Assembly (NCBI GenBank): GCA_023920165.1
Contig: CP089275.1
Span: 1,054,001-1,118,000 of the forward strand
From: Curvularia clavata
Taxonomy: Eukaryota
Reading direction: 5' to 3'
DNA length: 64,000 nucleotides
The translations under genes and the position numbers were made by a program. Each line of letters opens with the position of its first letter. The stretch's first letter is position 1. Under the pieces are notes generated by a model, which worked only from the letters and a program-made list of their open reading frames with translations, did not search any database and had not been told where the DNA came from. Positions 35,630 to 54,609 of the stretch are shown here, in pieces.

Positions 35630-37041
35630 ATGTTCGGCACAATATCATTCACGAAAAATGGTCAATACAAGGTCTCGAACGATCACCTTTTCTCGCAGGA
35701 GGAGAGTGATCGTGCAACGCGACGGTTCGCTTGTCGCACCTGTCGGCTGTTCAAGGTGAGTCCACAAGGGGAACAACTTGCGAAAGTTGAATCCTCCCAA
35801 TCAGTTTTGGCTCCGAATTCTAATAAATTTCAGGTCAAATGCAGTAGGAACCCCACTGCATGTGCTCGTTGCTGCAGTCTCAGTCTTGATTGTGTTTATG
35901 ACCAATCCACGGAATCACGGTCTCAGCACGCTTCTAATGAACGACCGTCAAGTAACAGCAGTTCATTGACAACACAATCAAAATCAGCTTCTGCTAGCCC
36001 TACTCCAAGACCATCGAGTGCCCAGGGCTCTGGGCGTTCCAGTACTACAGAAACGCTCATTTCGAATTTTTTAGATTGCGAAGAACCTATGGAGTCTGAT
36101 GAAACCTTTGCCGAGTTTACACTAGAGAGTCCAGTCTTTCGAAGTGTGCAGTCAACACTCTCGATTGAGCAGCAACCTACAAACGACGCCTTGGAGGTGG
36201 GATTTTCTCCGTCTGGGAAGGACGTCTTTAGCATGGACCTAGGCTTTGATGAGCCGAACCTTGCAAATCACGGAATATCGCAAGGGTCTCTCACTCTTCA
36301 GGATTCTGACAAAATAGTATCATGTAAGTGGACTCTTCCTTAATTCGATACTGAGGCACTGTGGTAATTGAGAATGAAGTTCAAACACTACACGATACCC
36401 ATTGGCCGCAATCGACTTCTCAAAACGACGACCTTGGAGGCACAATAAACATGCCGAGCCCGATGTCGCCTCCTTTATCGCAGCCTCCCGCTACCGAATG
36501 CAACTGCTTGGGTCAGCTCTCAACAGCACTTTTCGCTCTCAACGGAATGCTCCGGCGCTCTGCTTATGACGAGAGCGTACCTACAGCCTCACGATTTCAA
36601 GAAGCTTTGCAAAGCGTCTTCAAAGTTACTGCACGGACAAAGGGGCTGCTGGATAAGGTTATGTGCTGCTCGTGTCGTTGCTTCACGAAAAGTGAAAATC
36701 GGGTGCTGCTTGTCATGATTTTGGAGCAACTCGTAGACTTATGTTCTACTTTGGTAGCCCAGATAGAACTCAGATTCAAGGAGCCAAGTGAAGGCATTTC
36801 TGTGACAGTACACATAGGCGGATATGTAGTGGATAGCGAGCAGGAGCAGCAGATGGTTTTCTTTTTTCTCATCAGTGAGCGGTTCAGGACGCTCACTGCA
36901 TCAGCTGTTTCCTGCCGAGATAGGTTTGGCGCGGTAGCCGACACCGCTCATAGCCAAGCCCGCTTAAGCTCAGCAATTCACAGCCTTGGCTTGTTAAGGC
37001 TTAAAATAGGTAGCAGAACAAATATGAAATGTAAGGCATAA
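35630..37041 (+). CDS. Cluster-specific Zn(II)2Cys6 transcription factor (AflR-like C-terminus)
   Basis: Removing intron 35756-35833 gives CRTCRLFKVKCSRNPTACARCCSLSLDC. The C-terminal region has ECNCLG and VMCCSCRC. A second intron starts ~36324; its acceptor is uncertain. Confidence 0.82.
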
Positions 37042-37330
37042 ACTATCAAGTAATGCACAGCGCTGGCAGGGGTGGTGTGCCGAGCCTTGAAACATACAGG
37101 AAATGGAAAATTCGAATGGAGTGTCCTTCCGAATCGGGGTACAGCCCGAGAGCGACTGGTTTCGAGCCCCACTCCCATGTCCGTCGACTTATGTAATGAC
37201 AGAAAGTGCCAATAACATGTGGCTCAAGTCCGTTGTGAGTTATTGGAGAATGTGTTTAGATCATCGCTCCTGTTTCTGAGAGTCTTTGCATTCCTCACAC
37301 CATTCAAATCTCGATTTTACCGCAACCGGA

Positions 37331-39361
37331 ATGGATCTGTTCACTGATGGAATTCATGCACTCTACCTTGTTTGGCAATGGCCAGTAGTTCCATTGCTAA
37401 CAACTGTGGTATGGCATTATCTAGATACATTGGATTGAAAAAGCACTCTATGTATTAACATTCGACGATAGTCATTGTTCGCATTGATCTCGAAAGCTTT
37501 CTACAATGTCTTCTTTCACCCACTCGCGGATTTTCCTGGGCCGCTTCTGGGCCGCATGTCACTGGTAGGACCACTCTCCATTACATTCAAGGGCCATATT
37601 TTTTGTACTCACTTTGCTTACTTAAACATAGTTATGGCGTTTCAAATCTAGTGCAGGCGGGAAAATACACCTTGAAATCGAGAAGATGCATAGAAAGTAT
37701 GGTAAGAAGACATGCCACCAGTACCCTCGAATTACACGCACTAATTTAGCGAGGCCCTATTGTTCGTATCTCACCAAATGAGCTTTCTTTTGCGTCTGTG
37801 GAGTCCTGGCGCGCCATCTACGGACATGCTTCTCCAGGCAAGGAGGTCATGCGCAAGAGCCCATTCTACGACATCTTCAGCTCTGGCTTCAAGCATTCCT
37901 GTGTTGGCAGCGAGCGAGATACGAAGAAGCACGGAAGTATGCGACGTATGCTATCTGCAGCGTTCTCGCAGCGGGCTTTGCTTGAACAGGAGACAATGGT
38001 GTCTGGTACGATCGATAGATTTGTCGAAATCATAGGCAAGAAGAGCATAACTGAACCCTTGAATATGACCAAATGGTATGAGATGGTCAGCTTCGATATT
38101 CTTGGAGAGATGGCCTTTGGAGAGTCTTTTCATAGCATAGAGACAGGTTTGCTTCCCAACCCTTACTCACGGTTTTCTGTTGTTCACGTAACTAACTATC
38201 GAGCTCTTTCTAGGTCGATCTCATTTCTGGTCTGACTTGATACTAGAGCACCTGTATTTCATTACTCTGGTGGACAATCTGAGCCGCCTTCCCTTCGCAG
38301 TAGCAATTTCTCGGGTGCTGTTTCCTTCCATGCTCCTTGCCAAGAATCACAATTCCGAGTTCAGCAGGAAGCAAGTCGAAAAGTACGTTATCCAAGTGCT
38401 ATATCTGTCTCTTGTACAAATGCTTAAACACATTCATTTTAGGCGCCTCAGTTCTCGAAGCTCGCGGAAAGACTTTCTCACTCACCTTGTCCAGAAAGTC
38501 CGAGACGGCGAGGTAGAGCAAGAGGAGATGACAGCACATGTCTCAACGCTAGCGTAAGTTTTCCTGTCACCTTGAAGATCACGCTCGAAAACGCTATTAT
38601 AAATGATATCTACCAATACAGTGAATGTACTACTAACTGTACTATGCAGCATCGCCGGTGGTGAAACCGTCTCAACTTTTCTTGCTGGAACAACCTTCTT
38701 TCTGCTTAATAAGCCCTCAACAATGAAGAAGCTCACGACTGAGATTCGAGACGCATTTCCAACCTACGACACAATCAATGCGCAGAGAGCGCAGCAATTA
38801 CCTTACCTGCAGGCCGTAATTCAGGAAGGACTGCGAATGTATCCACCCGGTTCGCAAGGCTTTCCACGAATCTCTCCAGGATTTGAATTGCATGGAAAAT
38901 ACGTACCCCAAGGAGTAGGTAACCCCGTCTCTACTGTGCATGAATGGTTAAAAAATTTCACGTCTGACGCGAGCGCTAGGTCGAAGTGTACACTAGTGCA
39001 TGGACTGTGACGCACGACCCACAGTACTGGGAGAACCCAATGGAGTTTGCCCCCGAAAGATGGCTAGATAATGACAGCCAAGACATCCGGGAGGCGAGTC
39101 AGCCGTTCTCACTAGGGCCTAGAGGATGTCTTGGTCGAAAGTAAGCACCCCAAAATCAGTAGTTTCTCTCTCGCGAGTAAAGAACTAACCAATAGCAGTT
39201 TTGCCTACATGGAAATGTTCTTGTTACTGGCAAAGATGTTATGGAGATACGATCTCGAGCTGGTGAACAAAGATGTAGGCTGGCTAGATGAAGGAAAGGT
39301 CTACGTAATGTGGTGGAAGCCTAAGCTTATGATCCGATTTCATCCACGTGTTGACGTATGA
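37331..39361 (+). CDS. Cytochrome P450 monooxygenase (CYP65/Tri11-like), multi-exon
   Basis: FFHPLADFPGP, I-helix IAGGETVST, EGLRMYPP, PERW, heme motif PFSLGPRGCLGR. Confidence 0.92.
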
Positions 39362-39562
39362 GAGATTTTTCGATATTGCGAGCAATACCCAGGGAAGAGG
39401 AATTGAATTGAGTCTATATCGTATGAAGCTGTGAACAGGCTATCCTGGTAGAGAATCATAAACAACGCTAATCCTGAACTTGCAAAGTCCTCTTGCCAAT
39501 AGTAAATTGCTCCTGTATGGCATGGCACCAAATTGCAGCAGGAATCCTCCAGACCATCAGGC

Positions 39563-41548
39563 CTACGTAGATTTATTTTTCTTCTTGATAGTGACCTGGA
39601 AACGATGTAATGGCGTTAACGTCACCTTTCCTGCACATTTCCAGTTTATATCCCGCCTCGCTTGCTCAACATCAGTCCCCTCTGCAAAGCAGATGTCGTA
39701 CTCATGAAGAAGTGCTGCAAAGAAAGCCATGTATTCTGCTTGGGCAAACTTGCGACCCAAACATACGCGCGCGCCATCGGAGAAAGTGAGTAGCGTTCCA
39801 CGCATCTGACGAGTTTTATCAGCAGCAACAGTCGCGGCTTTGCGCGACTTGACCGTCGTGCCTGCTTCGTTGTCGAAAGCATGGTTGCTCTTCGTTGAGA
39901 TGCCCTGCGTGCTGTTCCATCTTTCTGGCCGTAACTCTGTAGGATTTTCCCAGTACTTTTCATGGTAGTGTACACCAGGTGCTGATAGGTAGACACGACA
40001 GCCTGCAGGTAGCACATGTGACATGTTGTCAACGCGGATCTCTTGCTTGTCATGACACATCTTTGTGATCAAGGTCACACCAGGGTATAACCGGAAGGTT
40101 TCGTACTTTCATCAAGTCAGTAAGATCTATAGAAGTTGTCGGGTCGCAGTGACCAACCATGAATCCGTATAGATATTGCAGCTCGGCAAAATCATCTTCA
40201 TATGACAATCGTGTTCGTCCTTGTGCTGCGGCTCGTGACCACACCTTGTCAATACTGTCGCTCAATTTCTGTTGCAACATGGGCTCAAGTGCCAATACAA
40301 AAATGCCATATGCGATAGCATTAGCGGTAGTCTCGTATCCTTTGTCCATGTCGTCAGTACGGTAATTGCTTCAGATATAGCGGTACCCACCAGCTAGCAA
40401 GTATATGAACAAATTTCCCATGACCTCATCGTCCGTGAAAGCATGTTTTTTAACATTCTCCTTCCCAATCATAGCATGCTGCTTCTGATTCTCTAAGCCC
40501 GCCTCGTATGATGATCCGACGACCATGTTCAATAGGTTACGCCGCGATGCTTTTACTGCTTCGCCTGTACCTCCCTCTATCCTCTTTTTCTCGACACGAA
40601 TCATCCCCCGAAGATACTTATCGAGTTGCGAATGAGCGAGTTGGGCTTTTGCGTATGGGGAAATCTTCAGCAGCCAGGCGGGGAATACCAGTATTGCTAG
40701 CATAAAGGTTGTCGTATCACTGATGGCTCTTAAAAAGCTGATTTTGTAGCCAGTCGGAACGTCTCTTTCCTGATCTGTCACTGATTCAAGCTTTTTACCG
40801 AAAGCAGCAAGCGAAATGACAGCAAGAGTGAGTGCGTTGACGTTTTCGTGTATGTCTTTTGGAGGTTCTTTTGCCCATAAGCTCAGTAGGGTCTGTGTTT
40901 GATGCATTGTTTCGTCCCAAACAAGTTTGTTGATTCCGTTAGTCTCTGAGAATGCTGGTGCTGTGATGCGTACGTGGAAGCGGTATTCAGCTCCCTCCGC
41001 GGTTGCTACGTTGGGTCCATATGGCTCGAGTATTTCTGTTGGCTTTAATGTTGGCTTTTCTAAAACGTAGCTGTGCATACAGGGACATAATAGTAACAAG
41101 AAAAGTTCACATCGAACAGTTCCATAACGAAAATTCTGTGCTTACTATACTTATCTCGTGGCTTGGTGAAGTCAGAACGCCTGTTCATCACGTCCCACGC
41201 GAGAGCGGCATCTGCAGTGTAGCATATCATTCCATCGGGCGAGACGCAGATGAACGTATCACCGTACTCTTCATGAGCGAGCCTCTTATCCTCCCAGGAC
41301 CAGTCTTTGATCATGAATCGACACCATCTGGGCCATCCTTTACCCGCATCCAAGTGGGCTAGATAGAGCCTGCGAAGGAAAAGGGTTGCAAGCTGCGCGA
41401 ATACTTGCGTTTCAAGAAGAGGGGTTACCACTACTCGAAGACCAGTTGCTCGTGCTTTCGCGATGTTTCGCCACAAGCGGAGTCCTTGCACTAGCACCAG
41501 TGCAATCGTTATCATCAAAAGATGAGACATAATAGGTGGAACGTACAT
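39563..41548 (-). CDS. Cytochrome P450 monooxygenase, multi-exon
   Basis: N-terminal TM segment, I-helix YLLAG|YETTA, ETFRLYPG, LRPERW, heme motif TFSDGARVCLGRKFA. Confidence 0.9.
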
Positions 41549-41807
41549 CGTGATCGTGGATAGCAATTGATGTATGATTGAGATCAGCGAGCGGGCAATG
41601 TGCCAGTTGTATACTACCTATGTTATGTTTGCCTTTGGAGGCGCTACAGATGTGAGAAGGCTCGGCATGCAGGAATGACAAATCCCAATGGGGCAAGCTC
41701 GATTCGGCAGCCCGCGTGCAGCAGCTCAGCACGCAGCCTCGAAAATAAAATCAGTCCTAACGATATAACAATAGTAGCACCTAATATGATATTCTATCTC
41801 ATACACC

Positions 41808-42882
41808 ATGACGGACTTAAATCTTCGACTCGACAACGTTCCCTCACTAGATGGAAAGGTTGTGCTCTTGACAGGTCAGATCAGACAATCATCGACCTCA
41901 ACTAAAACTAGCTCATGTGTCAATAGGCGGCGCTTCTGGAATTGGTCTTGCAGCGGCCAGAATTTTTGCGAGCAAGGGCGCTGAGGTGCACGTCCTCGAT
42001 ATTGTGCCTATCGATGAGAGTTTCGATATTTACGAAATCCCAGGCCAGACGGTCAAACCGCCAGAGAGTTTGCCTGAAGTTCCCAGAGGAAGAATCAATT
42101 TTCGCCAATGCGACATCACTGACTGGAAATCCTTGAGGGATAACTTCCTGTCGTTTGATCACATCGATATTGCAGTGGCCAATGCGGGCGTCTCGCAAGA
42201 TCCTGATTACTTCACAGATGTTTTTGACGATGATGGGTTGCTCCTGGAGCCAAAGCACAAGGTTATGGATGTGAATTTTCGATCTGTGTTGAATTTCACC
42301 AAACTGGCTTTACGTCAGTTCGCAACCCAGCCCGCGGGAAGTAGCCTTGTCATTACTGCGAGCGCTACTGCTTATGCACCAGAGCAAAGTCTCCCTGTGT
42401 ATAGCGCCACAAAACTTGCTGTAAGTGGGCACAGTTGTGCTCAATCTATTCTTGTAAAGCATTAACTGAGTTTGCTGCAGGTTGTGGGTCTGATAAGAGG
42501 CTTACGTCCCATGGCGGAGCAATACGGAACAACTATCAACGGAGTAGCACCTGCAGCTACCATCTCAAAACTATTGCCCACGAATCTTGCGGCGCCAATC
42601 AAGGCTGCCGGAGCGCCCATCAGCAGTGCATACCATGTTGGTTTGGCGATAGCATATTCCGCTACAGCGCAGCAGCAACGTGCTGTGGAGTCCTACGGCA
42701 GAGATGATGCAACCAAGTCGAACTCACCTGGTCGGTGGAACGGAAGGATTATCTTAACTCTCGGAGACCGCTGGACCGAGCTGGAGGAGCCAATTGCGTC
42801 TTTGCGACCGAATTGGTTTGGTGAATACAACACCAAGATGACGGCGTTCCAGCAGAAGTTGACGGATCAGCGACCTTTGTAG
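41808..42882 (+). CDS. Short-chain dehydrogenase/reductase
   Basis: MTDLNLRLDNVPSLDGKVVLLT|GGASGIG (TGxxxGxG split by an intron), ANAG, catalytic YSATK. Second intron at 42421-42480. Confidence 0.9.
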
Positions 42883-43108: not shown

Positions 43109-45101
43109 ATGTCAGCCATGGAAACGAATACACAATCTGAATCCAAGGGTCCGGAGGAATCGGCTACCTCTCTAACGGAGGCTGCCGATGACTACCCATC
43201 AGGTTCAAGGTTTTTTGGCTTGTTGGTGGCCTTGATGTTAACCATATTTTTAGTAGCTATGGATATGGTGCGCCTTATACGTCTGATGACTATCGTTTCT
43301 GCTTCTAACCATAACAGACAATTGTTGCTACTGCTATTCCACGTATCACCCAGGAATTCAACAGCATACCCGACATTGGCTGGTACGGATCTGCGTTCTT
43401 CCTTACCATCTCTAGTTTTGCGCAACTCTGGGGCAAGGGTTATACATATTTTCCGCTGAAATGGGTTATAATCGCTGCCATTGTTGTATTCGAGATTGGA
43501 AGTTTGATCTGCGGTGAGATTTTTGATGTTTTTTCCTTTTTCTCTGAAATTCGTTGCTGACATTTCATCCTAAGCTGTTGCACAAGATAGTATAACGTTG
43601 ATAGTCGGCCGAGCGATTTGTGGTGCAGGCGGCGCCGGTATCACGAATGGCTGTTATACGATTATTGCCTTCATCGCAAGACCAGAAAGCCGTCCAGCAT
43701 ACACGGGTCTTCTCGGTGCGACATACGGTATGGCTAGTGTTATTGGACCATTGGTCGGTGGTTTCTTTACCACCGATGTTACATGGCGATGGTGGTGAGC
43801 AATCCAAATATTCACTTCAACCATCTACAGTGACCCGCTGACACAACATCTCCACAGCTTTTACATCAATCTTCCTATCGGAGGGTTTTCGCTTTTGGTT
43901 CTAACATTTTTCTTTAAAACACCTGCTGCTGCTAAACCGAAATCCGCCTCGCTGCGAGAGAAGGCACTGCATGCAGATTTACCTGGAGTGATACTCAGTG
44001 CCAGCTGCATTGTTTGCTTTCTGTTGTATCTGCAGTGGGGAGGTATCACTAAACCATGGAACTCACCGGACGTGATTGGTTGCATTGTTGGATCCATTGT
44101 CCTCTTCGCTGCATTTGCTTGCGGACAGTGGTACTTGGGTGAGAGGGCGATGATGGTTCCTCGTCTTCTCCTGACCCGTGAGACCATCGCCCTAGCGCTC
44201 TACAATTTTTTGTAAGCTTTCTTTGTCCTTTGAAGGCCATCTGAATCACTGCTAATTCTGTTAGCCTTGCTGGGTCTTACTTTGTCTTTGTTTACTACCT
44301 GCCAATCTATTTCCAATCGATTGGTGGGCTCTCAGCTGCAGCAAGCGCGGTGAGAAATTTACCCCTTATCATCAGTTCCTGTACGTCGCACCTTTCAATG
44401 AAGTCGTTGTTGCATTCATTATTGCTGACATGAAATAGCTATCTTTGGCATCGTGTCTGGTGTCTTAATGACCAAATTCGGTTACTTTCATTGGTTTCTA
44501 TGGATCGGCGCAGCCCTCAGTGCTCTCGGAGGAGGCCTTATCTATACGCTCGGCATTCAACTTGACACTGGCAAATATGTAGGCTTCCAACTGATAGCTG
44601 GAACTGGTGCAGGCCTGTCTCTGCAGGTTCCTGTCATTGTTGCCCAAGCTACCACGCGTCCCGAAGATATCGCTATGCGCACAGCCATCTTACTTTGTAA
44701 TGTGTCCTCAGGATCTTTCACTGCAAGCTTACTAACTGTCCTTAGTCTTCCAAACACTCGGCGGTGCCATTTTCATATCCGTAGCTCAGAACATGTTTGC
44801 CAATCAGTTGCTTCAATCTGTGACAAACAACAATGTCGGCTTTGACCCCCAAAAGATTCTGTCTGTGGGAGCAGATGACCTGAAAAGCCACTTTCTTGCT
44901 CATGAGCTCAGCGACGTCTTCAAAGCATATCTGTTGGGATTGAGAACAACTTGGATCTTGGGTATTGCGTGCGCGAGTGCTGCATTCATAGTCACTTTTG
45001 GATCACGGTACCGCAACATACTCGCTCCAAAAGCACATTTATCAGGCTCCAAAGATGGCTCATACATTGAGAAAGCCAGTGAGGATGAGGCGATAGTTTG
45101 A
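43109..45101 (+). CDS. MFS drug:H+ antiporter (DHA2, toxin-efflux type), multi-exon
   Basis: [58 protein letters not shown]. Confidence 0.92.
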
Positions 45102-45329: not shown

Positions 45330-46823
45330 TTAACACAAAAGTTTCATGTATTCCTGCCATTCTGTATCCTGCAGCAGCATCTCCATGTCTTCCTTGATCA
45401 TGGTAACAACGACTTCGACGTCACCGTTTTCCTTTTCTGGCATAACGAAAGTGATACCCTCGAATATTCCCTCGGGAAACCTGACGTAATCAGGAACGGT
45501 ACGATCTTCCCCAAATACACTGCCCCAGTGCGTCTTGTATAGCCGCAGTCCGGAAAGTGAGCTTATTACCACATCCTCCGCCAACCAAGTCGGGTAAACA
45601 AGCCCGAGGCATGATACGTCTGGAATACTTGCAGCCAGTCTCAGGACGTCCCATAAAATAGCGGGCTCCCTGTGCGAGCGGACTGCAGCTCGAATATCGT
45701 TTGCAGTGTCCCTCATGGATTGGTTAGTTACGAGGTGTCTTGCCTGAACCTCGTTGACGCTGTAAACGATGACATTTGCTATGCGTTCCTTGCTTTTCTT
45801 TGCGCCAGAATCGGAGTGCACATATGGTATTAATCCCCGGATGTTCATCGCGTACATCATAGTACTTGTCTTTGTAAGGTCTTCTGCCTTCCGTAGTCTA
45901 GCTCGCACGATGCAGCGCCATATTAGTGCTGAGGTGGCGTCGTTGTTAGAGATCCAATTCCCGTTACTCTGCGATATCTTCTCATCAATGGGATTGACGT
46001 CCTTTCCCGCCGGCCTTCTACATAATTCCTTGAGAAAAAGCTGTTGCTCGGCGCTCATACCAAAGATCTTGGTAACTGTCTCTTGTTGTGGAATATTTTT
46101 TGCCAACATTGCAGACGTCATTTCCTTGGGTCTGTAATCCAAACCAAGCATGTGCCATAGCTCTTTTCTACCCTTCAACTGATCGTAGACTTTTCTATCC
46201 TGATTGATGCCACCCTGAAGGCCTATCTCCTTCTGTGAAATTGGCCAGTGGTGAAGGTTCGCCGTAGTCTCTCCCCTAGCCTGCAGTGCCCACGCTTCCG
46301 CAATCTGACTGAGACCCGAGGCATCCATGACCGCATGGCTCGTGCATAAACACAGGAAGACACCATTCTTGATAAAGCTCACTTTTGCTTTCAAAAGGAA
46401 TTTCATTCCTTCTTCGCTAGTCTCCCTACTTGGGATGAGTAGTTTTGCGCTCAAGTATTTAGAAGGCATGTGCTCCGAGACCAATGTATCATAATCTTTA
46501 TTTTCATACAGGGGGTGTTGAGATATATCCTGTATTGAGAGTTGAAGGTCGGCGGGATCGTGAATGCTCGAACCGTTGCCATTCGCATCCAAAGGACTGG
46601 AGAGAAACTTAGTCCCCAAGCGATGACCCGATGTTACTGCGTTGCTGTTGACGGTACAACGCATCCAGGGGTTCGAGGAAAGTAGAGATCTAAAGGAAGA
46701 AGAAAGAATTTCGGCTGTTTCTGAATGTGTGCGGCACGGCAAAGTGAGAACAAACGGGAGGTCGATGTCCGGCATGATATCGTCTAGGGCACCCAGAGGA
46801 TAGGAGTTTATGTTGTTGACCAT
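45330..46823 (-). CDS. CoA-dependent O-acyltransferase (Tri101/BAHD-like Transferase family)
   Basis: Intronless ~497 aa ORF with catalytic HxxxD (SHAVMDASG), SNNDATSALIWRCI, and a DFGWG-position variant YKTHWG. Confidence 0.85.
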   Translation of the reverse strand: MVNNINSYPLGALDDIMPDIDLPFVLTLPCRTHSETAEILSSSFRSLLSSNPWMRCTVNSNAVTSGHRLGTKFLSSPLDANGNGSSIHDPADLQLSIQDISQHPLYENKDYDTLVSEHMPSKYLSAKLLIPSRETSEEGMKFLLKAKVSFIKNGVFLCLCTSHAVMDASGLSQIAEAWALQARGETTANLHHWPISQKEIGLQGGINQDRKVYDQLKGRKELWHMLGLDYRPKEMTSAMLAKNIPQQETVTKIFGMSAEQQLFLKELCRRPAGKDVNPIDEKISQSNGNWISNNDATSALIWRCIVRARLRKAEDLTKTSTMMYAMNIRGLIPYVHSDSGAKKSKERIANVIVYSVNEVQARHLVTNQSMRDTANDIRAAVRSHREPAILWDVLRLAASIPDVSCLGLVYPTWLAEDVVISSLSGLRLYKTHWGSVFGEDRTVPDYVRFPEGIFEGITFVMPEKENGDVEVVVTMIKEDMEMLLQDTEWQEYMKLLC

Positions 46824-47081: not shown

Positions 47082-48175
47082 TCAATCTACCATCAAGTAC
47101 CTCGGAGTTGTCTTGCTCCAGGTCTCGTTCCCACTCATCTGATATTTTAGCCCTTCCGCATACAACACTTGCGGGTCAAGAAGATCTTTCGAGTCATAGA
47201 GCGCAGTGCATAACATCTCGTGCTTCATCTCCCATTCGCGAACCAAAGACCAAAGGACCTTCTTTGACGATTTAATGTCCAGCCCGGTATTGTCTGCCAT
47301 AACCTTGACCGCAGAGCAGAGTGCAGAGCCTTCTTGTGCGCACTGCTCTGCCTGCTTCAACTCCTTTTCCCAGCTATAAATGTCGTTGACTATGGCGATA
47401 TGCTTGGCATGGTTTTCTTCAAGAGCACGCATCGCAGCGAGATCTTTAGGATCCAGCTCCAGATTCATAGAAAATCGCATGAGTGCAGATAGAAGACTAG
47501 GGTGCTATTAGTTAGGTGATTTTTTACAAAATAATGAGTTTGGAGCAAACGTACGCGCTTCCTACGTCCCTCTCGCGGTACACAAGGTAGCTACCCAGTT
47601 GGTCAATGCTCACTCGCGACTTATCGGTCTGAGCACGCATGAAAACAAATACGGGCTCTAGAACACTGTTTGCGAGTTCCATATCGATCTTACGCATTTC
47701 GTCCCAGATGGCATGGAACATCCATTCAACGGGAATCGACCCTTTGTCCAGTGAGCAATTATGGTTTCTGCATCGGAACCCTTACTCACAATCTGGCGCC
47801 ACCTTGCCTTCGGCGATGGGCATCAAATGCTCATTGTACGCTTTGCCTTCATCAAAAGACATCTCCTCCAAGAGGTCTCAAGTTACTGTCAGCGACGTGT
47901 GTAGAACTGTCTCAATTTCACCTACCATCTATCAGGAAAAGGATGGTGAGAAGCTTGCATGCAGATGCAATGCGTTCATCATGGGCCCGTGGGAAATACA
48001 AGCATGTAACACGAGAGAAGCCAGCGGCAACGAATTTCTTTCTTGCCTTTTCGTTAGGAAAAGGCCAATGCTGAAGGAACCAGCCATCAACTTGGGCAGT
48101 AGTTTCTTCAACTTTGGGGTGGATCGAAGATGTCCATGTGGAAGGAAGCGCAGGGTCCGAGATGAGGGCAGGCAT
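47082..48175 (-). CDS. ari1: Aristolochene synthase-like sesquiterpene cyclase (4 exons)
   Basis: Segments closely match the Aspergillus terreus/Penicillium aristolochene synthases as I recall them (FLQHWPFPNEKARKKFVAAGFSRVTCLYFP, LEPVFVFMRAQTD, YRERDVG, YQMSGNE). Motifs DDLLE, NSE NDIYSWEKE and the terminal RY are present. The actual product hydrocarbon is not proven. Confidence 0.9.
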
Positions 48176-48485
48176 GGCGTGAGGATATTTGCAAATTCAA
48201 GACTGGTTGGCACGACACATTTCTCGTGGAGTGGTGATTTAGGGACATTTTGAGGATTTCATAGTGATGCGTATGCTCCAATAGGAAACATCAAAAGGTA
48301 CAACGCTATGGCCCAAAGGAGAAAGCGTTAGATTGCTCGAGCTCCGGGCTCTTGCCAAATGGGAACACACTGCATCTAGGCAAGCGAACTACCTCGGACC
48401 GGAAAATCTTTTCTACGCGCATACGCCCCGTCACATCTCCCCCTGCGTTTGTTTTTCCTGTCTGCCACCCACCTGACGAGGCAAA

Positions 48486-50062
48486 ATGGTTTACCCCACG
48501 AATGTAGGCATCAAGGCCATCGAAATTTATATTCCCGGCCAGGTAAATATGCCCACGAAACTCATAATTGTGTCAGCATGCTTACTAACGTAATCCACTA
48601 GACCCTAGACCAGACTCAGTTTGAGGCGTACCAGGGCGTATCTGCAGGAAAGTACACAATCGGTCTCGGCTTAAAGTCGATGAACTTTTGCACAGACCGC
48701 GAAGGTATAGACGTGCCAGTAGGGCTCCAATGCAGCCCGGCCATGGGCTGACAGAAATAATGTTAGATGTATGCTCTCTTGCGCTCACCGCCGTTTCTTC
48801 CCTTCTCAAAAAGTACTCGATCAACCCAGACTCTATAGGCAGGCTCGAGGTAGGCACCGAGTCTCCTTTTGACAAGGCCAAGTCGGTCAAGACCGTCTTG
48901 ACTCAGCTATTTGGTGACAACCATAGCCTAGAAGGGGCGGATACAGTCAATGCGTGCTATGGTGGCACCAATGCCTTGTTTAACGCTATCAATTGGGTCG
49001 AATCTCGCTCCTGGGATGGTAGGGACGCGATTGTTGTAGCCTCTGACATAGCTGTGTACAAGCAGTCTGCGGCTAGGCCCACTGGCGGTGCTGGATGTGT
49101 CGCCTTGTTAGTTGGTCCAAACGCTCCGATAATCTCCGTCCCTGGTCTTCGCGGCACGTATATGACGCACGCATATGACTTTTACAAGCCTGAAATGCGT
49201 TCTGAGTATCCGTTCGTGGATGGCAAACTTTCCATATCCTGCTACCTGTCTGCACTTGATGGGTGCTACGCAGATCTACAAAAGTCAGCAGCACGAGCTT
49301 TACGTGACTCTGAGAGATATCCTGAAGCGAGTGCTATTCTAGCTCAGGATCGGCAAACCTTTGCTGACATCTTCGACTTTATGGCATTTCACACCCCCAA
49401 CTGCAAGCTTGTCAGCAAATCGTACGGCCGACTCTTATACAACGACTTCCGTCAAGATAGCACGTCGCACGAGGGCTTCGCTAGCGTGCCCAAACACCTG
49501 CACAACCTGTCCTACGATGAATCGCTCCAGTCAAAGGAGGTTGAAACTACCTTTGTGCAGCTTAGCAAAGCTCAATTCAAAGCCCGCATTGAGCCATGCA
49601 TTCAAGCACCAAGCCGGTGTGGTAACATGTATACCGCTAGCTTGTACTGCTCACTGCTGAGCCTCCTTTCTTCTGTTAGATCCGATGCCCTCCAGGGCAA
49701 AACCATCGGTCTTTTCAGCTATGGCAGTGGTATTGCAAGCAGTCTGTTCACTATGCAAGTTGTGGGAGATGTCACCAAGATCATAGAGCAAGTGAACCTC
49801 TTTGCTCGTTTGGACCAGCGTCACCTTGCCACGCCCGATGAATATGAAAAGGTATGATACTTGTTGACTCTGTGCTTCACATGGAACTAATACCATATGC
49901 TAGGCTTGTAAATTGCGAGAAGAGGCCTACGGAAAGAACAGCTTCACCCCACAGGCCGGTCTGGACGACATCGGTGAAGGTGTCTATTACCTTGAAAATG
50001 TAGACGATCAATACCGACGCACATACAAGGTTAAGGAACCCATCACCAACGGCGCTCACTAA
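48486..50062 (+). CDS. erg13: Hydroxymethylglutaryl-CoA synthase (ERG13 homolog, probably a cluster-specific paralog)
   Basis: [24 protein letters not shown] (catalytic Glu), NACYGGT (catalytic Cys), [18 protein letters not shown] (His), GNMYTAS, FSYGSG. Three introns. Confidence 0.95.
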
Positions 50063-50567
50063 GTCATTTGAAAAAATTCTCAATAGATAGTAGCCATAGA
50101 ACGTGTGTATCGACAATCTATAGATGTATCCGGCGCTATACTTGGCCCTAAGATATATGATCAATCTCCAACCAAGTTACGTGATCGTTCGTCAATAGGG
50201 TTCACTCATACTTGGCTGTCAATCATCATTGACATAATCCATTTGCTCTCATACCGTCAAAAGCTATCATCAATCAATCTGCGATTGAATCTGACAATGA
50301 CTTATCTTCGTCTCGCATTCGGGATATAGCTTTCCCAGCGCGGTGCGGTCTTAACTGATACCAGATTATGGTAGTTCCTAATCAACTTTGCAGCTCAGAG
50401 ATCATGCTCATTTAAGTTGACGCATGAACACAACATAGACTACTTTGAGTCAAACACAACATTGAAAGCGTGAGAGAATATGTAAAGCATTTCAGGATCC
50501 TAGCTACACTTCGCTACTTCTTCGTGTTCCCAATAGATACTATCGCTTCACGAAGGTCTTTCTTCGT

Positions 50568-52565
50568 CTACATGCTCCTTCGTATAAGTCTCACTCGAAA
50601 TTCAGGCTTCTTCCACAACAAGTGCATCTCACTTTGCCCCTGCCAATCCACCACACTATCAGCTGAAATGTCATAACAAAAGAGCAGTCGAGCAAGGGTG
50701 ATGTTCATTTCCAGCCAGGCCAGACTAAAAAAGATGTCAGTGTCAAAAAGCTTGTACGAAAAGAGAAAATCATCAGATTGGTATTACTAACCTGCGTCCA
50801 AGGCAGCTGCGGCTTCCTAGTGAAAAAGGCTTCGCTGCCTCTAATGAATCACTGCCGGCTTTTTCTTCAAGCCAGCGCGTGGGTTGAAATTGTTCAGGTT
50901 GCGAAAAGTTTTGAGGGCTCATACTGGCAGCATATGGATGGGTTGAAACGCAGAACTAGATTCGAGTTGACTTAGCACGAGAAAAACGGATGAAGATTTG
51001 TAAAAATTAAGAGAAGTCCACGCACCCCTCCTGGGACAAAATGTCCGTCAACCAAAGCACCCCCTTCTGGAACCACTCTAGGTAACCCTAGTGGTAATGG
51101 CGGAAATATTCTGAGGGCTTCCAAGCACACGGCATGCAGATAGCGAAGTCTTGCAGTACTAGGTCCGTCGATGTCTTTGTATGTTGTGAATTTATCGGTG
51201 ATTTCATTCCGTAGGCGCTCCAAAATACCTGGGTTACGGCAGAGGTAGTATAACACTACTGTTAAAGTAGTTGCTGTAGTTTCACTTCCAGCAATGCTAC
51301 CAACTGTTAGCTAACAGGGGTTGCAATAAAACCGAATCAGGGTGTCGTACACAAAATCCGAAGCATGTGCCGCAAATTGAACGTCGCTGATGCCCTCACG
51401 TGCGGACAGCAGATATGCCATGAAATCCTTTCTATCGGTTTTCTCCTCGATCCTCCTTATACACTGTAAGACACTCTGAAGATAGCGATGAGGGGAGAAA
51501 TGGTGACGAACTGCTTGGTGATTCTCATCGTGTATGTTTGATGTCTTTGGCTCGCGGCCATAAGTGAATTGAGCCAGTCTGGTCTGAAGAACATGTAGAC
51601 CTTGCCGACCCAGGGGAATCGCGAGAATGTATCTGAGAAATTGGCCTGGGACATGCTGCCTAGAACATCGTCAATCCAGTGATGCGTTTTCCCTTGAACC
51701 AATGGTGTTAGAATGTTTTCGAATAATTCTTAAGAGGATGTTATTTACCACTTTCGATTCCCTCAAAGTCCTGTCCGAACGCTAGTAATCCAATGATATC
51801 TGTAGAACAGTGAGTAAATACCCAACACGAAGTCCTTTCTTTGAAGCGTACCGAACGTCATCAAGTTAAACCATTTGGTCAAGTCTACCGATCCATCCTG
51901 CTCGCTAACCTGTCCGACCTTATCAACAAATTTGGTAATGACGTTGCTGATCATTCCTTCTTGCTCCCTCAAGCTCTGATCCGAAAATGCGCGCGACAAA
52001 AATTTCCTCATCTGCGCATGCTTCGCGGGATCGCGCTCGCTTACGATGCTGTGTGCCTGGTCCGCAAAGTTTCCGCCATCGTAAAACGCCGACTTGATGA
52101 ACTCATTGCCCTTGCGCGGTGCATAGATATCAGTCCACGATTGTGGTGAGGAGAAGGATACTTCGTTTGGTGAGACACGAATTACGGGTCCTTTGTATGC
52201 TAAGTTAATGGTCTACGAAAAGTGTTGTGGGTAATTGAAAAACAAACCATATCTTTCATGCAGTTTTAGAATATCCCATGGTTGCCTACCACTTAGAAAA
52301 CTTTTGCTGTATGGATACTAGCAATTTTCTCAGTCATTTTCTGTGCAACTGTCATACGAAAACAAGAGTGCGTCTTACGTTGGAGAGCGCTGCCAGCTTG
52401 GGACCAGGAATGTGCGAAAGCGGGTGGAAGTAAAGTCGACGAACAGCTCCTAATACAACGAACGATAACGGCTTCCACATAAGTCAGTAGTTGTGCGTCT
52501 GGGTTTCAATCTCAACTAACAATAAGGGCGGCCCAGACAACGAGGCTTATCGTTGAGGTGTCCAT
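50568..52565 (-). CDS. Cytochrome P450 monooxygenase (CYP65/Tri11-like), multi-exon
   Basis: YFHPLSHIPGP, IAGSETTAT, EALRIFPP, heme motif PFSLGSRSCLGR, C-terminus LLWKKPEFRVRL. Confidence 0.92.
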
Positions 52566-52874
52566 GGCTAGTAGGTGTGAAGGCATCGCCATTGTGTCGG
52601 CTTCGCGATGAAAGATCTGCGCAAAGCGCATGCACCAACGTATGCACACAGACTAACATACTTTTGTTCAAATTGATTGCCGTTGTGCCTAAGTAATGGA
52701 GGCTCCTTTCGAAAAGCCCGTCCTGGTGCCAAAAACGTACAAGTTCCCCTTTCGATGTCTCCCCGGCCGGGCGCCGCCGAGTTGGTGCAAGCCTCCGGCG
52801 AACATGCATATCTGCAAAAGGGCAGCTTCAACCCAAGATTTCGAAACCGGACCAGCCAGAGTTATCGTTTGAAT

Positions 52875-54609
52875 ATGCTGAACGGTACATCCAATTCATT
52901 CGAAGACGTCAGTCTTGGCCGTCTGGCTTTTGGCCGAGCGACGCTGCTGTTGGTGGGGTCCGCTTTGTATCCACATCGCATGACCGCTGCCCTTACTCTC
53001 TTTACGCTATTGGTTTTCTATCGACTTTTATTTGTCTACACTGAAGACAAGCGCGAACCGCGCCTAATCAAGCCTCGATTTCCGCTCATTGGACATGCGA
53101 TCAACATCTACCGGCATGGATCCCGTCATTTTGTGGCAATAGCGTAAGGAACACACTTACTTGCTATTAGCAAGAAATCTGAATTAATTATATAATAGGA
53201 GAAAATGCGGCCTTCCGATATTTTTGCTTCCGATGCCTGGCGGTCGCATCGCCATTGTCACAACCCCGGCTCTGTTGTCCCACGTCGACAAGAACCCAAA
53301 AGCCATTGCATTTGCTCCGATCGCTGCTTTAGTCATTGACAAGCTGTCTGGTTTGTCGAAATCGGGGTCTAAGGTTGTCCTCGACAAACTCATGGGAGAG
53401 GACAAGATGGAAGGGTATATGAATGCCGTGATGAAAGATATTCATGCGACTCTGACACCGGGACCACACCTGGAAACGATCACAACTCAGGTCGCTTATG
53501 ATATCAATGGTTCCATCCGAAAACTTCATGGAAAGACAAGCCGTGTGAACCTGTTGCATTGGTTCAGGCATGAATTTGGCCTATCATCAACAAATGGAAT
53601 TTACGGACCAGAGAATCCATTCAAGGATCCCAAGGTCGAAGCTGGATTTTGGTGAGTGTTCCTAACTCTAATAGTGTCATCATCTCCTAACCTTGATTGT
53701 TGCAGGGCTTTTGACGACAACATTTCCGATTTGCTTATCACACCCAAAGCCAACGTCACATGCCCTTCAGGCGATCGTGGCCGGGCCGACGCTTGGAAGG
53801 GTTTCGAATACTACTTTACAAAAAATGGCCACGAAAAGGGTTCTGAGCTCGTAAAGATCCGCTACAGACATGCTGCTGACCGCGGTCTTTCTAACCTCGA
53901 CATTGGCAAGCTGGAAGTAACGATGATCATTGGTATTCTGACCAACACCGTCCCCACGATATTCTGGGCTGTCTACTACATCTATCGCGATGCACAACTC
54001 CTTAAAGACCTCCGTGAAGAGATCAGCGAATTCGCTGTCAAGACTACCAACGGCCAAGGCGAATCCATATGGACAATCAAGAATGTTGACCTGAACAAAC
54101 GAGCCAAGTTACTAGCAGCGGCAATTGACGAAACCTTCCGTCATAGGACATGTGGTATTTCGAGTCGTTATGTAACCGAGGATATCACATTGGACGATCA
54201 ATATCTCTTGAAGAAAGGAACTATCATGGAACTCCCTAACAACGCTCTCCATTCCAACAGCGAGTACTGGGGAGAAACAGTGAACGAATTCAATCCTCGA
54301 CGCTTCCTGGCCAACCCACGTTCCGCCGAAGCGAAAGCTGCTCGCGGTGCCTTCCGGCCGTTCGGAGGTGGTGCGTCGCTCTGTGCTGGCCGCCACCAGG
54401 CCATGTCACAAATGCTCGGAGCACTTGCCCTCTTCATCATGAGCTCAGACTGCGATCCCGTAGGCGGAGAGTGGAAATTCCCTGGTGCGCACGGACACAC
54501 TATTGCAGCTGCTGTCGACTTGCCCTCGACTGATCTTTGGCTCGATGTGAAGCCTCGGAAAGGTTACGAATCTGACTACTGGCTACTTGACCCGCTGGCG
54601 AAAGATTAG
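52875..54609 (+). CDS. Cytochrome P450 (CYP7/CYP8-like, E-class group IV), 3 exons
   Basis: N-terminal TM segment, PRFPLIGH, I-helix GILTNTVPT, ETFR, FNPRRF, heme motif PFGGGASLCAGRHQA. Confidence 0.9.

What the first reader, a model, noticed from the sequence alone, without database searches (positions are those of the whole stretch)
35630..54609. Self-contained eremophilane-type sesquiterpenoid cluster that carries its own HMG-CoA synthase
Seen: ten tightly packed genes (Zn2Cys6 TF, four P450s, SDR, DHA2 MFS, HxxxD acyltransferase, aristolochene-synthase-like cyclase, HMG-CoA synthase), with catalytic motifs intact in all the enzymes. Known: aristolochene is the precursor of eremophilanes such as PR toxin, whose cluster uses an aristolochene synthase, P450s, SDRs and an acetyltransferase. 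Inference: this cluster makes a highly oxidised, acylated eremophilane. I do not recognise this gene set (four P450s, HMGS, no PKS) as a characterised cluster.
Basis: partly seen in the sequence, partly recalled or inferred. Interest (0 to 1): 0.85.

Follow-up and report, generated by a model that had tools for sequence, protein, structure and literature searches.

The report
Eremophilane cluster with built-in HMG-CoA synthase
A plant-associated fungus (Curvularia clavata) carries an expressed ten-gene cluster that most likely makes an oxidised, acylated aristolochene-type sesquiterpene, and several distantly related fungi also keep an extra HMG-CoA synthase gene next to the terpene cyclase and the acyltransferase.

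Summary
Window 35630-54609 holds ten intact genes: a Zn2Cys6 regulator, four P450s, an SDR, an MFS pump, an HxxxD acyltransferase (AT), an aristolochene-synthase homologue (AS) and HMG-CoA synthase (HMGS). The HMGS matches a Curvularia clavata protein at 100%. Spliced RNA contigs from four public runs show that at least six of the genes are transcribed.

The gene-family content is close to the PR-toxin cluster (AS, four P450s, SDR, acyltransferase, regulator). It lacks that cluster's oxidase and adds HMGS and a pump. It is therefore a member of the well-studied fungal eremophilane cluster family, not a new kind of system.

The HMGS is not a chance neighbour:
- It is catalytically intact and falls in a separate, well-supported HMGS clade.
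- In 5 species from 3 fungal classes it lies next to an AS, judged by consecutive locus tags or accessions.
- An AT relative lies within a few genes in 7 species.
- The HMGS-linked AS proteins also form their own clade.

I read the HMGS as a cluster-dedicated precursor booster. Two rivals remain open: supply of HMG-CoA as the acyl donor, and self-resistance. The public gene models that fuse AS with AT are probably annotation artefacts. The product is untested. My paper searches found no eremophilane cluster with HMGS.

The parts
35630..37041 (+). Zn2Cys6 cluster regulator, 425 aa, predicted introns 35756-35833 and 36324-36379
   Evidence: the spliced model gives a CX2CX6CX6CX2CX6C zinc cluster; the unspliced ORFs give no Pfam hit. 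RNA contig cover at 36051-37352 in X1 and X5 (X5 piece 36380-37035).
37331..39361 (+). Cytochrome P450 'a', about 501 aa, 8 predicted introns
   Evidence: PF00067 hits on two exons; open model with I-helix, ExxR and haem-Cys loop. The junctions are predicted and were not shown by RNA.
39563..41548 (-). Cytochrome P450 'b', about 598 aa, 3 predicted introns, with a long insertion before the haem loop
   Evidence: PF00067 on three pieces (E down to 4e-22); model. RNA cover at 39306-41258.
41808..42882 (+). Short-chain dehydrogenase/reductase, 320 aa
   Evidence: adh_short, E 8e-19; both introns (41875-41926, 42421-42480) are seen in spliced contigs of X1 and X9; model with glycine-rich and YxxxK motifs.
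43109..45101 (+). MFS efflux pump (TRI12-like), 552 aa, 6 introns
   Evidence: MFS_1 and TRI12 hits; introns 43268-43317, 44381-44438 and 44697-44745 are seen directly, and the piece coordinates of one X9 contig fix the other three..
45330..46823 (-). HxxxD acyltransferase (Transferase PF02458 plus TRI-like_N), 497 aa, no intron
   Evidence: PF02458, E 2e-21; nearest solved structure is trichothecene 3-O-acetyltransferase 2zba, E 1e-12. HxxxD is present, and the start aligns with 7 of 7 stand-alone homologues.
47082..48175 (-). Aristolochene-synthase homologue, 312 aa, 3 introns
   Evidence: PDB aristolochene synthases at E 1e-32 to 1e-35; all three introns are seen in spliced contigs; model with DDxxE, NSE and C-terminal RY.
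48176..48485 (.). 310-bp intergenic region shared by the divergently transcribed AS and HMGS genes (presumed bidirectional promoter)
   Evidence: Gene models. Promoter function is inferred, not tested.
48486..50062 (+). HMG-CoA synthase, 467 aa, 3 introns
   Evidence: HMG_CoA_synt_N and _C (E 5e-54 and 1.5e-80); identical to a Curvularia clavata protein; introns are seen in up to 4 runs; full-length match to human HMGCS1 2p8u, E 2e-133.
50568..52592 (-). Cytochrome P450 'c', about 500-512 aa, 9 introns (2 seen in RNA)
   Evidence: PF00067; introns 50725-50791 and 51297-51350; model. Some junctions are uncertain.
52980..54609 (+). Cytochrome P450 'd', 506 aa, 2 introns
   Evidence: PF00067, E 7e-25; both introns (53144-53198, 53652-53705) are seen; model; the nearest representatives are P450s of Metarhizium majus (66%) and Macrophomina phaseolina (53%).

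Best explanation
This is an expressed but uncharacterised member of the fungal eremophilane (aristolochene-derived) family of biosynthetic gene clusters, in Curvularia clavata.

Inferred pathway:
1. The cyclase converts farnesyl diphosphate to aristolochene or a very close isomer.
2. One P450 plus the SDR install the ring ketone, as in the known Emp9/Emp4 step to 7-epi-neopetasone.
3. The other three P450s add hydroxyl, epoxide or carboxyl groups.
4. The HxxxD acyltransferase esterifies one hydroxyl from an acyl-CoA.
5. The MFS pump exports the product, and the Zn2Cys6 protein switches the genes on.

The embedded HMG-CoA synthase is an active, accessory copy of the mevalonate-pathway enzyme. 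It is inherited together with the cyclase and the acyltransferase, and it most likely raises HMG-CoA, and hence FPP, supply when the cluster is on.

Shown: gene content, intactness, transcription, homology, and conserved AT-AS-HMGS linkage.
Inferred: every chemical step and the role of the HMGS.
For: Cyclase:
- Exon 4 hits 7 aristolochene-synthase sequences at E 9e-36 to 3e-34, and the next hit scores 1.6e-8.
- Exon 1 has 7 hits, all aristolochene synthase.
- The metal-binding and RY motifs are present.

Composition: it matches the PR-toxin cluster table in AS, four P450s, SDR, acyltransferase and regulator. It also matches the general rule that eremophilane clusters share AS + P450 + SDR.

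Expression: spliced contigs at 99% identity or more in 4 runs from 4 studies cover SDR, MFS, AS, HMGS, P450c and P450d.

HMGS is active-looking:
- Both Pfam domains are present.
- It aligns end to end with human HMGCS1, E 2e-133, with the Glu, Cys and His motif columns conserved.
- The three motifs are present in 12 of 12 clade members.

HMGS is accessory and linked:
- It is 71-86% identical to copies in Phaeosphaeriaceae, Plenodomus, Westerdykella, two Aspergillus species and Hymenoscyphus, but only 56-67% identical to the remaining listed fungal HMGS.
- It sits in a 12-row clade with SH-aLRT 100.
- AS and HMGS have consecutive locus tags or accessions in P. lindquistii, A. sclerotialis, A. 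pseudotamarii and H. fraxineus, besides this window.
- The order AT-AS-HMGS is the same in A. pseudotamarii, where the three accessions are consecutive.
- The HMGS-linked AS proteins form a 7-row clade with SH-aLRT 99.

Precedent: hirsutene synthase of Stereum hirsutum is an STS-HMGS fusion inside a P450-rich cluster (passages in PMC8705726 and PMC9501842).
Against: - No chemistry was tested. Terpene synthases at 60-70% identity can make different products.
- Orthology of any P450 or the SDR to the characterised Emp9/Emp4 enzymes could not be tested, because the tools held no reference sequences.
- HMGS is not usually regarded as the flux-controlling step of the mevalonate pathway; that is HMG-CoA reductase (textbook knowledge). 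A pure supply role therefore does not obviously explain why HMGS alone is kept.
- The AT travels with HMGS even in a second HMGS clade (Bombardia, Hypoxylon sp. FL0543). This also fits a donor-supply role.
- Contig depths of AS and HMGS do not move together across the four runs, although contigs cannot measure expression.
- I could not show that C. clavata has a second, housekeeping HMGS, because no genome was held.
- The AT region 45816-46466 had no RNA cover in the four runs. That is no evidence either way.
Confidence: 0.6

Rival explanations
1. The HMGS supplies the acyl donor. The HxxxD acyltransferase uses HMG-CoA, or a CoA ester derived from it, to make a 3-hydroxy-3-methylglutaryl-type ester of the oxidised eremophilane. 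On this reading HMGS is a tailoring-pathway enzyme and not a flux booster.
For: - AT relatives lie within 1-4 genes of an HMGS in 7 named species: this window, P. lindquistii, A. pseudotamarii, A. sclerotialis, V. echinocandica, Bombardia bombarda and Hypoxylon sp. FL0543.
- These cases span two separate HMGS clades.
- Four unnamed contigs carry both an HMGS and an AT relative, judged only by equal contig lengths.
- No PKS or other acyl-building gene lies in the window, so the acyl group must come from a primary-metabolism CoA ester.
- HMGS alone, without the reductase, is what a donor role would need.
Against: - My search for eremophilanes with an HMG ester returned 19 papers. None of the 15 listed is, by title and abstract, about such a compound.
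- The nearest solved relative of the AT uses acetyl-CoA (TRI101).
- The PR-toxin cluster has an acetyltransferase without any HMGS.
- The co-occurrence could reflect common descent of one cluster.
- H. fraxineus shows the AS-HMGS pair, but no AT relative turned up. That is weak evidence, because the search is word-limited.
Confidence: 0.15
2. The HMGS is a self-resistance copy. The cluster product, or an intermediate, inhibits HMG-CoA synthase, and the embedded copy is an insensitive or surplus target, as in the 1233A/hymeglusin cluster.
For: - An extra copy of a housekeeping enzyme inside a cluster is the classic mark of self-resistance.
- A fungal case with HMGS as the target is tabulated: 1233A from Fusarium sp. 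RK97-94 (table in PMC13515044).
- The cluster copy sits on a long, well-supported branch (0.34 changes per column).
Against: - The known case is a polyketide beta-lactone, and no PKS is present here.
- I know of no eremophilane reported to inhibit HMGS (recalled, not searched specifically).
- No position is fixed differently in the 12-member clade against 36 other HMGS under a strict criterion, and the catalytic motifs are unchanged.
Confidence: 0.1
3. The cyclase does not make aristolochene. It makes a related or different sesquiterpene, such as a valencene- or eremophilene-type isomer, so the product is not an eremophilane in the strict sense.
For: - The HMGS-linked cyclases form their own clade (SH-aLRT 99, branch 0.31), apart from the rows that stand for characterised lineages: Penicillium PR type, Xylaria hypoxylon and Periconia macrospinosa.
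- Valencene-derived fungal metabolites exist (section text of PMC13736955).
Against: - The two solved aristolochene synthases, from different genera, both match at E about 1e-35, far above any other terpene synthase.
- In the printed alignments, the residues around the metal-binding motifs and the C-terminal W...RY segment are conserved.
Confidence: 0.12
4. The HMGS is simply the organism's housekeeping ERG13 gene, and it happens to lie beside a terpene cluster.
For: No second HMGS of C. clavata appeared in the 120 rows listed, and no genome was available to look for one.
Against: - The same neighbourhood recurs in 5 species of 3 classes.
- The protein is closer to the AS-linked copies of Aspergillus (76-77%) than to the only other Pleosporales row outside the clade (Periconia, 61%).
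- The clade is patchy and cuts across taxonomy.
Confidence: 0.03

Closest known systems
PR-toxin cluster of Penicillium roqueforti / P. chrysogenum (prx/ORF1-11; group A eremophilane clusters)
   Same: Both hold an aristolochene-synthase-type cyclase, four P450s, an SDR of about 320-330 aa, an acyltransferase of about 470-500 aa and a Zn-type regulator. An MFS gene is also named among the prx genes (Table 3 and text of PMC10144355).
   Different: - This cluster has no quinone/FAD oxidase (ORF3), no small ORF7 protein and no second SDR within 35.6-54.6 kb.
- It has an HMGS, which the PR-toxin table lacks.
- The cyclase lies in a different clade from the Penicillium PR-type row.
- Orthology of individual P450s was not testable.
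Fungal eremophilane cluster framework (Emp2 cyclase + Emp9 P450 + Emp4 SDR giving 7-epi-neopetasone; groups A, B, C, BC, D, X; 371 clusters; Shi et al. 2026, PMC13736955)
   Same: The core gene families are the same (cyclase, P450, SDR). A PF02458 HxxxD acyltransferase, as described for group C, is also present (sections read).
   Different: - There is no PKS, so the cluster is not group C or BC as defined.
- The word 'HMG' does not occur in that paper's main text.
- The supplement that lists the clusters could not be read, so this cluster may be among the 371, possibly among the 42% left unclassified.
Hirsutene synthase-HMGS fusion protein of Stereum hirsutum (Flynn and Schmidt-Dannert 2018) and A8411 of Steccherinum ochraceum
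   Same: A sesquiterpene cyclase is physically tied to an HMG-CoA synthase inside a P450-rich cluster (passages in PMC8705726 and PMC9501842).
   Different: - Those are basidiomycete proteins with both domains in one polypeptide, and the cyclase is a 1,11-cyclising type.
- Here two separate genes are transcribed divergently from a 310-bp spacer, in ascomycetes, with an aristolochene-type cyclase.
- The original paper was not held.
1233A (hymeglusin) cluster of Fusarium sp. RK97-94, with HMGS as self-resistance gene
   Same: An extra HMGS gene sits inside a fungal secondary-metabolite cluster (table in PMC13515044).
   Different: That cluster is built on a PKS and its product is a known HMGS inhibitor. 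Here the core is a terpene cyclase, there is no PKS, and nothing shows that the product inhibits HMGS.
AKT4 HMGS of the Alternaria alternata AK-toxin cluster
   Same: An HMGS homologue is used as a biosynthetic (non-sterol) enzyme in a Pleosporales toxin cluster (passage in PMC9134587).
   Different: AKT4 is proposed to act with a PKS on a polyketide chain. Here there is no PKS, and the protein aligns end to end with canonical cytosolic HMGS.

Membership tests
Fungal eremophilane (aristolochene-derived) biosynthetic gene cluster | Aristolochene-synthase (Emp2) homologue with class I motifs | tested here: met
   (PDB aristolochene synthases, E 1e-32 to 1e-35). (DDxxE, NSE and RY in an RNA-supported 312-aa model). 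(it nests among proteins annotated as aristolochene synthase).
Fungal eremophilane (aristolochene-derived) biosynthetic gene cluster | Cyclase product is aristolochene | not testable with these tools
   This needs expression and GC-MS.
Fungal eremophilane (aristolochene-derived) biosynthetic gene cluster | Emp9-type P450 and Emp4-type SDR that make 7-epi-neopetasone | tested here: inconclusive
   Four P450s and one SDR are present and intact. No reference Emp sequences were available, so orthology was not tested.
Group C / BC eremophilane clusters | PKS (Emp12) for the acyl chain, together with the HxxxD acyltransferase | tested here: not met
   Pfam scans of 119 ORF pieces across the 64 kb window found no KS/AT/PKS domain. 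The acyltransferase is present.
PR-toxin (group A) cluster | Full gene set, including the ORF3 oxidase, the small ORF7 protein and the ORF8 acetyltransferase | tested here: not met
   An acyltransferase is present. No FAD/quinone oxidase and no second SDR were found in or beside 35.6-54.6 kb. ORF7 could not be searched without a reference sequence.
HMG-CoA synthase (EC 2.3.3.10) | Both HMGS Pfam domains and the catalytic Glu, Cys and His | tested here: met
   (PF01154, PF08540). (alignment to 2p8u over residues 5-457, with the motif columns conserved; the residue roles are recalled from the literature). (motifs in 12 of 12 clade members).
STS-HMGS fusion proteins (Stereum type) | Cyclase and HMGS in one reading frame | tested here: not met
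   The two genes lie on opposite strands, 310 bp apart, and each has its own spliced transcript contigs.
Self-resistance HMGS (1233A type) | Cluster product inhibits HMGS, and the cluster copy is insensitive | not testable with these tools
   Only indirect evidence: there is no PKS and no clade-specific substitution.
BAHD/TRI101-like acyl-CoA-dependent acyltransferases (PF02458) | HxxxD catalytic motif and DFGWG-type motif | tested here: inconclusive
   HxxxD is present. Only a degenerate 'HWG' stands where DFGWG would be. Pfam E 2e-21. TRI101 2zba E 1e-12.

The most novel reading that the evidence does not exclude
The conserved AT-cyclase-HMGS trio is a functional module in which HMGS makes the acyl donor. 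The acyltransferase would hang a 3-hydroxy-3-methylglutaryl (or HMG-CoA-derived) ester on the oxidised eremophilane. That would define an undescribed class of fungal sesquiterpenoid HMG esters and a non-sterol, non-supply role for a canonical HMGS in ascomycete secondary metabolism.
Probability: 0.15. Interest if true: 0.65.

Novelty: new variant of a known kind. Interest (0 to 1): 0.45.

Why it matters
Eremophilanes include mycotoxins and phytotoxins such as PR toxin, phaseolinone and bipolaroxin, as well as bioactive leads. Their clusters are now being classified by gene content.

This work points to a sub-family spread over Dothideomycetes, Eurotiomycetes and Leotiomycetes in which an accessory HMG-CoA synthase and an acyltransferase are inherited with the cyclase. 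Such a trio could serve as a genome-mining marker.

It also poses a simple experiment on why a cluster would keep just this one mevalonate-pathway enzyme: for flux, as the source of the acyl donor, or for resistance.

Finally, it flags two public gene models that probably merge the cyclase and the acyltransferase into one false protein.

Tried and rejected
- Whole genome: none is held for this window. I could therefore not look for a housekeeping HMGS or for other copies of the cluster.
- Earlier scan notes: there are none on this genome. A word search gave only prokaryotic HMGS findings among the 8 shown, and 'aristolochene' occurs in no note.
- Metagenome contigs: 80 loci that encode HMGS relatives were fetched. 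None of the 80 has a relative of the AS, AT, P450, SDR or MFS pieces at tblastn E 1e-8 or better, and the best full-length identity was 67%. They say nothing about synteny.
- RNA runs: no RNA holder is listed on record. The four runs I laid turned out to be transcript contigs, because they skip GT..AG introns. The AT stretch 45816-46466 had no cover in any of the 4 runs. Only 15 of 33 joints were printed. Depths cannot rank genes.
- P450d orthologues: a full-library search (4018 hits at E 0.001 or better, 150 listed) and naming of 10 of them gave Metarhizium majus (66%), Macrophomina phaseolina (53%) and Heterodermia speciosa (53%). None is from the trio-bearing species, so this gave no synteny information.
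- Shared promoter motif: GTGCCA occurs 7 times in 2126 bp of the seven promoter regions and 40 times in the whole 64 kb window. That is not convincing after testing about 2000 hexamers, and the flanks are inconsistent.
- Clade-specific HMGS substitutions: there are none under a strict criterion.
- Automatic gene-model enumeration failed or was too strict. The models were finished segment by segment.
- HMGS tree: the careful tree did not finish, so the quick IQ-TREE result is reported.
- Papers: Flynn and Schmidt-Dannert 2018 is not held. The supplement of PMC13736955 is not readable. The KK-1 paper on C. clavata does not mention this cluster.
- AS-AT fusion protein: considered and rejected (see the full report).

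Full report
WHAT IS THERE

The window is fungal DNA with short introns. No whole genome is held for it.

I scanned 53 stop-to-stop ORF pieces between 35.3 and 57.1 kb against Pfam, and 14 gave hits:
- eight P450 pieces that make up four genes;
- adh_short;
- MFS_1 and TRI12;
- Transferase PF02458 with TRI-like_N, on one 534-codon ORF;
- Terpene_syn_C_2;
- both HMG-CoA-synthase domains (E 5e-54 and 1.5e-80).

A second scan of 66 pieces from the rest of the window found the tail of an NRPS, transporters, two further fungal transcription factors, a metallo-beta-lactamase-fold protein, and ankyrin and TPR proteins. It found no PKS, no second terpene synthase and no other mevalonate-pathway enzyme. 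Downstream of 54609 there are only short ORFs without family hits.

ORGANISM AND GENE MODELS

The main HMGS exon matches a 467-aa protein named hydroxymethylglutaryl-CoA synthase [Curvularia clavata] at 100%. tblastn places that protein on four exons of the window.

I laid four public runs from four studies on 35400-54900. They proved to be transcript contigs, because they skip GT..AG introns, and 68 of the 75 laid contigs are at least 99% identical to the window. They confirm 15 introns:
- SDR: 41875-41926, 42421-42480
- MFS: 43268-43317, 44381-44438, 44697-44745
- AS: 47497-47554, 47742-47789, 47877-47925
- HMGS: 48543-48601, 48705-48766, 49852-49903
- P450c: 50725-50791, 51297-51350
- P450d: 53144-53198, 53652-53705

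Only 15 of the 33 joints were printed. With these introns, and with segment-by-segment joining for the rest, I obtained open models for all ten genes. The coordinates are listed under parts.

The regulator gave no Pfam hit because a predicted intron (35756-35833) splits its DNA-binding domain.

Every enzyme keeps its family motifs, as listed under the observation check. The junctions in P450a, P450b, the regulator and parts of P450c are predictions.

THE CYCLASE

Exon 4 (140 aa) hits the solved aristolochene synthases of Aspergillus terreus (E 9e-36) and Penicillium roqueforti (E 5e-35). The next best hit, another terpene-synthase fold, scores 1.6e-8. Exon 1 has 7 hits, and all 7 are aristolochene synthase. 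The RNA-supported 312-aa model carries DDxxE, NSE and the C-terminal RY pair.

Among database relatives it is:
- 85% identical to an unnamed contig protein;
- 77% to Plenodomus lindquistii;
- 66-70% to Aspergillus pseudotamarii, A. bertholletiae, A. sclerotialis and Hymenoscyphus fraxineus;
- 58-65% to the next nine hits printed, from the 'aristolochene synthase' proteins of Colletotrichum and Nemania at 64% down to Aureobasidium at 58% (blastp inside the script).

COMPARISON WITH KNOWN ERADICATED... NO: COMPARISON WITH KNOWN EREMOPHILANE CLUSTERS

The PR-toxin cluster table in the P. roqueforti review (PMC10144355, table read) lists:
- two SDRs (340 and 329 aa);
- the cyclase;
- a quinone oxidase;
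- four P450s (540, 579, 509 and 480 aa);
- a small ORF7;
- an acetyltransferase (471 aa);
- a regulator (458 aa).

The text also names an MFS gene among the prx genes. The window has the cyclase, four P450s (about 501, 598, 506 and 500-512 aa), one SDR (320 aa), an acyltransferase (497 aa), a regulator (425 aa) and an MFS. It lacks the oxidase and the second SDR, and it adds HMGS.

Shi et al. 2026 (PMC13736955, Results read) classify 371 fungal eremophilane clusters around a shared core of cyclase (Emp2), P450 (Emp9) and SDR (Emp4). They describe a PF02458 HxxxD acyltransferase in the PKS-containing group C. Sun et al. 2023 (PMC10686045, passages) state that the four characterised clusters share one P450 and one SDR for C-8 oxidation.

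None of these texts contains 'HMG', and neither do the farfugin or sporogen papers. The supplement of Shi et al., which lists the clusters, could not be read. This cluster may well be among the 371.

I could not test which P450 corresponds to which Emp enzyme, because no reference sequences were available through the tools.

THE HMGS IS PART OF THE UNIT

1. It looks active. It aligns from residue 5 to 457 with human cytosolic HMGS (2p8u, E 2e-133), and the columns of the Glu, Cys and His motifs are conserved (the roles of these residues are recalled).

2. It is a distinct paralogue. The identities are:
   - Phaeosphaeriaceae sp., 86%
   - P. lindquistii, 84%
   - Westerdykella ornata, 77%
   - A. 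sclerotialis, 77%
   - A. pseudotamarii, 76%
   - Venustampulla, Dothidotthia and Pseudogymnoascus, 72%
   - H. fraxineus and Myriangium, 71%
   - Dothideomycetidae sp. 11243, 70%
   - the other named fungal HMGS in the 120 rows, including other Aspergillus species and the Pleosporales fungus Periconia, 57-67%

   I built a quick IQ-TREE from 51 of the 120 listed rows. I kept near-full-length rows with an organism name and dropped 69 unnamed, fragmentary or redundant rows. The tree puts the window's protein in a 12-row clade with SH-aLRT 100 and a stem of 0.34. The careful search did not finish.

3. The neighbourhood recurs:
   - P. lindquistii: HMGS NX059_011525 next to NX059_011526
   - A. 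sclerotialis: PHISCL_06713 next to 06714
   - H. fraxineus: HYFRA_00003164 next to 00003163
   - A. pseudotamarii: KAE8143184 next to KAE8143183

   With the window, that is 5 species in 3 classes.

4. The acyltransferase travels with them.
   - Its relatives include KAE8143182 of A. pseudotamarii, which gives the same AT-AS-HMGS order as here.
   - PHISCL_06716 is the relative in A. sclerotialis.
   - BP5553_00111 is the relative in Venustampulla, where the HMGS is 00109.
   - The Plenodomus model also contains an AT relative.
   - More distant AT relatives (35-37%) lie two and four accession numbers away from the HMGS of Bombardia bombarda and Hypoxylon sp. FL0543. Those two HMGS belong to a different clade.
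   - Four unnamed contigs appear to hold both genes, judged only by equal contig lengths.

5. A quick tree of 37 cyclases gives a 7-row clade (SH-aLRT 99, stem 0.31) that holds every HMGS-linked cyclase plus A. bertholletiae and one unnamed contig. The rows were 35 of the 66 hits, the window, and the first 300 residues of the Plenodomus model. This clade is separate from the Penicillium PR-type, Xylaria hypoxylon and Periconia macrospinosa rows.

So the cyclase and HMGS have been inherited together.

This adjacency is inferred from numbering, not from reading the DNA. Absence of a hit in the word-limited searches is weak evidence.

WHAT THE HMGS DOES

Three readings fit.

(a) Precursor supply, which I prefer. 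A canonical, unchanged HMGS is switched on with the cluster. The precedent is the cyclase-HMGS fusion that makes hirsutene in Stereum hirsutum (review passages; the original paper is not held). I also recall, without a call to support it, that an Aspergillus nidulans diterpene cluster carries HMG-CoA reductase.

(b) Acyl-donor supply. The AT-HMGS association reaches beyond the AS-linked clade. No PKS is present to build an acyl chain. HMGS without the reductase is what a donor role would need. Against this, my search for eremophilane HMG esters returned 19 papers, and none of the 15 listed is, by title and abstract, about such a compound. The nearest solved AT uses acetyl-CoA.

(c) Self-resistance, as in the 1233A cluster (table). 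Against this, there is no PKS, and no position is fixed differently in the 12-member clade against 36 other HMGS.

An HMGS used as a polyketide beta-branching enzyme, as with AKT4, is unlikely without a PKS.

Contig depths for AS and HMGS do not track each other across the four runs. The tool warns that such depths cannot rank genes, so I draw nothing from this.

THE ANNOTATED CYCLASE-ACYLTRANSFERASE 'FUSION'

The public C. clavata model yc1106_02198 (811 aa) and the Plenodomus model NX059_011526 (803 aa) join the cyclase to the acyltransferase. The C. clavata model leaves the cyclase at 47100 and resumes at 46847. It thereby skips the stop codon at 47082 and removes the Tyr of the RY pair.

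Four observations argue against the fusion:
- The cyclase ends where the A. terreus enzyme ends.
- Transcript contigs in 4 of 4 runs run unspliced through 47100 to 47047 or 47014 (table 8).
- The cyclases of A. pseudotamarii, A. bertholletiae, A. sclerotialis and H. fraxineus are annotated as separate proteins of 306-313 aa.
- Seven of 7 stand-alone AT homologues start at the position of the ATG at 46823.

I conclude that these are two genes 258 bp apart. Contigs cannot prove transcript ends, and 18 joints were not printed.

VERDICT

The cluster is a new variant within a known and currently well-mapped family. The added value is the conserved AT-cyclase-HMGS trio and the open question of what the HMGS is for.

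My paper searches and term look-ups in the eremophilane papers found no description of an eremophilane cluster with HMGS. The library lacks most subscription journals, and the key supplement was unreadable.

Noticed in passing
window 45330-48175 (- strand): The public gene models for C. clavata (yc1106_02198, 811 aa) and Plenodomus lindquistii (NX059_011526, 803 aa) merge the cyclase and the acyltransferase into one protein. The transcript contigs, the cyclase's own stop codon and RY motif, and the stand-alone homologues all argue that this is an annotation artefact.
   Followed up: yes
window 3-3833 (+): This is the 3' end of a large NRPS gene (condensation, carrier, condensation-like domains) that runs off the left edge of the window. 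A SLAC1/TDT-type transporter follows on the opposite strand at 4224-5534. I could not tell whether it is the KK-1 synthetase of C. clavata.
   Followed up: partly
window 21093-26837: A second small group of genes typical of secondary-metabolite loci lies here: an MFS/TRI12-like transporter (-, 21093-22286), a Zn2Cys6 plus Fungal_trans regulator (+, 22592-24677) and a metallo-beta-lactamase-fold protein (+, 25776-26837). No core synthase was seen nearby.
   Followed up: no
HMGS proteins P0045, P0067, P0090 (Hypoxylon sp. FL0543, Bombardia bombarda, Apiospora phragmitis): These form a second clade of apparently accessory HMGS copies (SH-aLRT 97). In Bombardia and Hypoxylon the HMGS lies two and four accession numbers away from a relative of the cluster acyltransferase. 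The many other top HMGS hits also do not follow the species tree, which suggests that accessory HMGS paralogues are widespread in Pezizomycotina.
   Followed up: partly
window promoters 35230-35629, 37042-37330, 41549-41807, 46827-47081, 48176-48485, 52593-52979: The hexamer GTGCCA/TGGCAC occurs 7 times in 2126 bp of cluster promoter regions, in 6 of the 7 regions, against 40 times in the whole 64 kb window. The enrichment is weak after multiple testing, and the flanks are not conserved.
   Followed up: partly
window 45372-45403: In three runs (X1, X2, X5) a contig matches only this stretch of about 30 bases, at the 3' end of the acyltransferase gene, and then continues on both sides into the same unrelated sequence. 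It may be a short repeat or a shared element elsewhere in the genome.
   Followed up: no
P450d, window 52980-54609: Its closest library representatives are P450s of Metarhizium majus (66%) and Macrophomina phaseolina (53%). The latter species is a known producer of the eremophilane phaseolinone, according to PMC13736955. After four close representatives, identity falls to 40% or less.
   Followed up: partly
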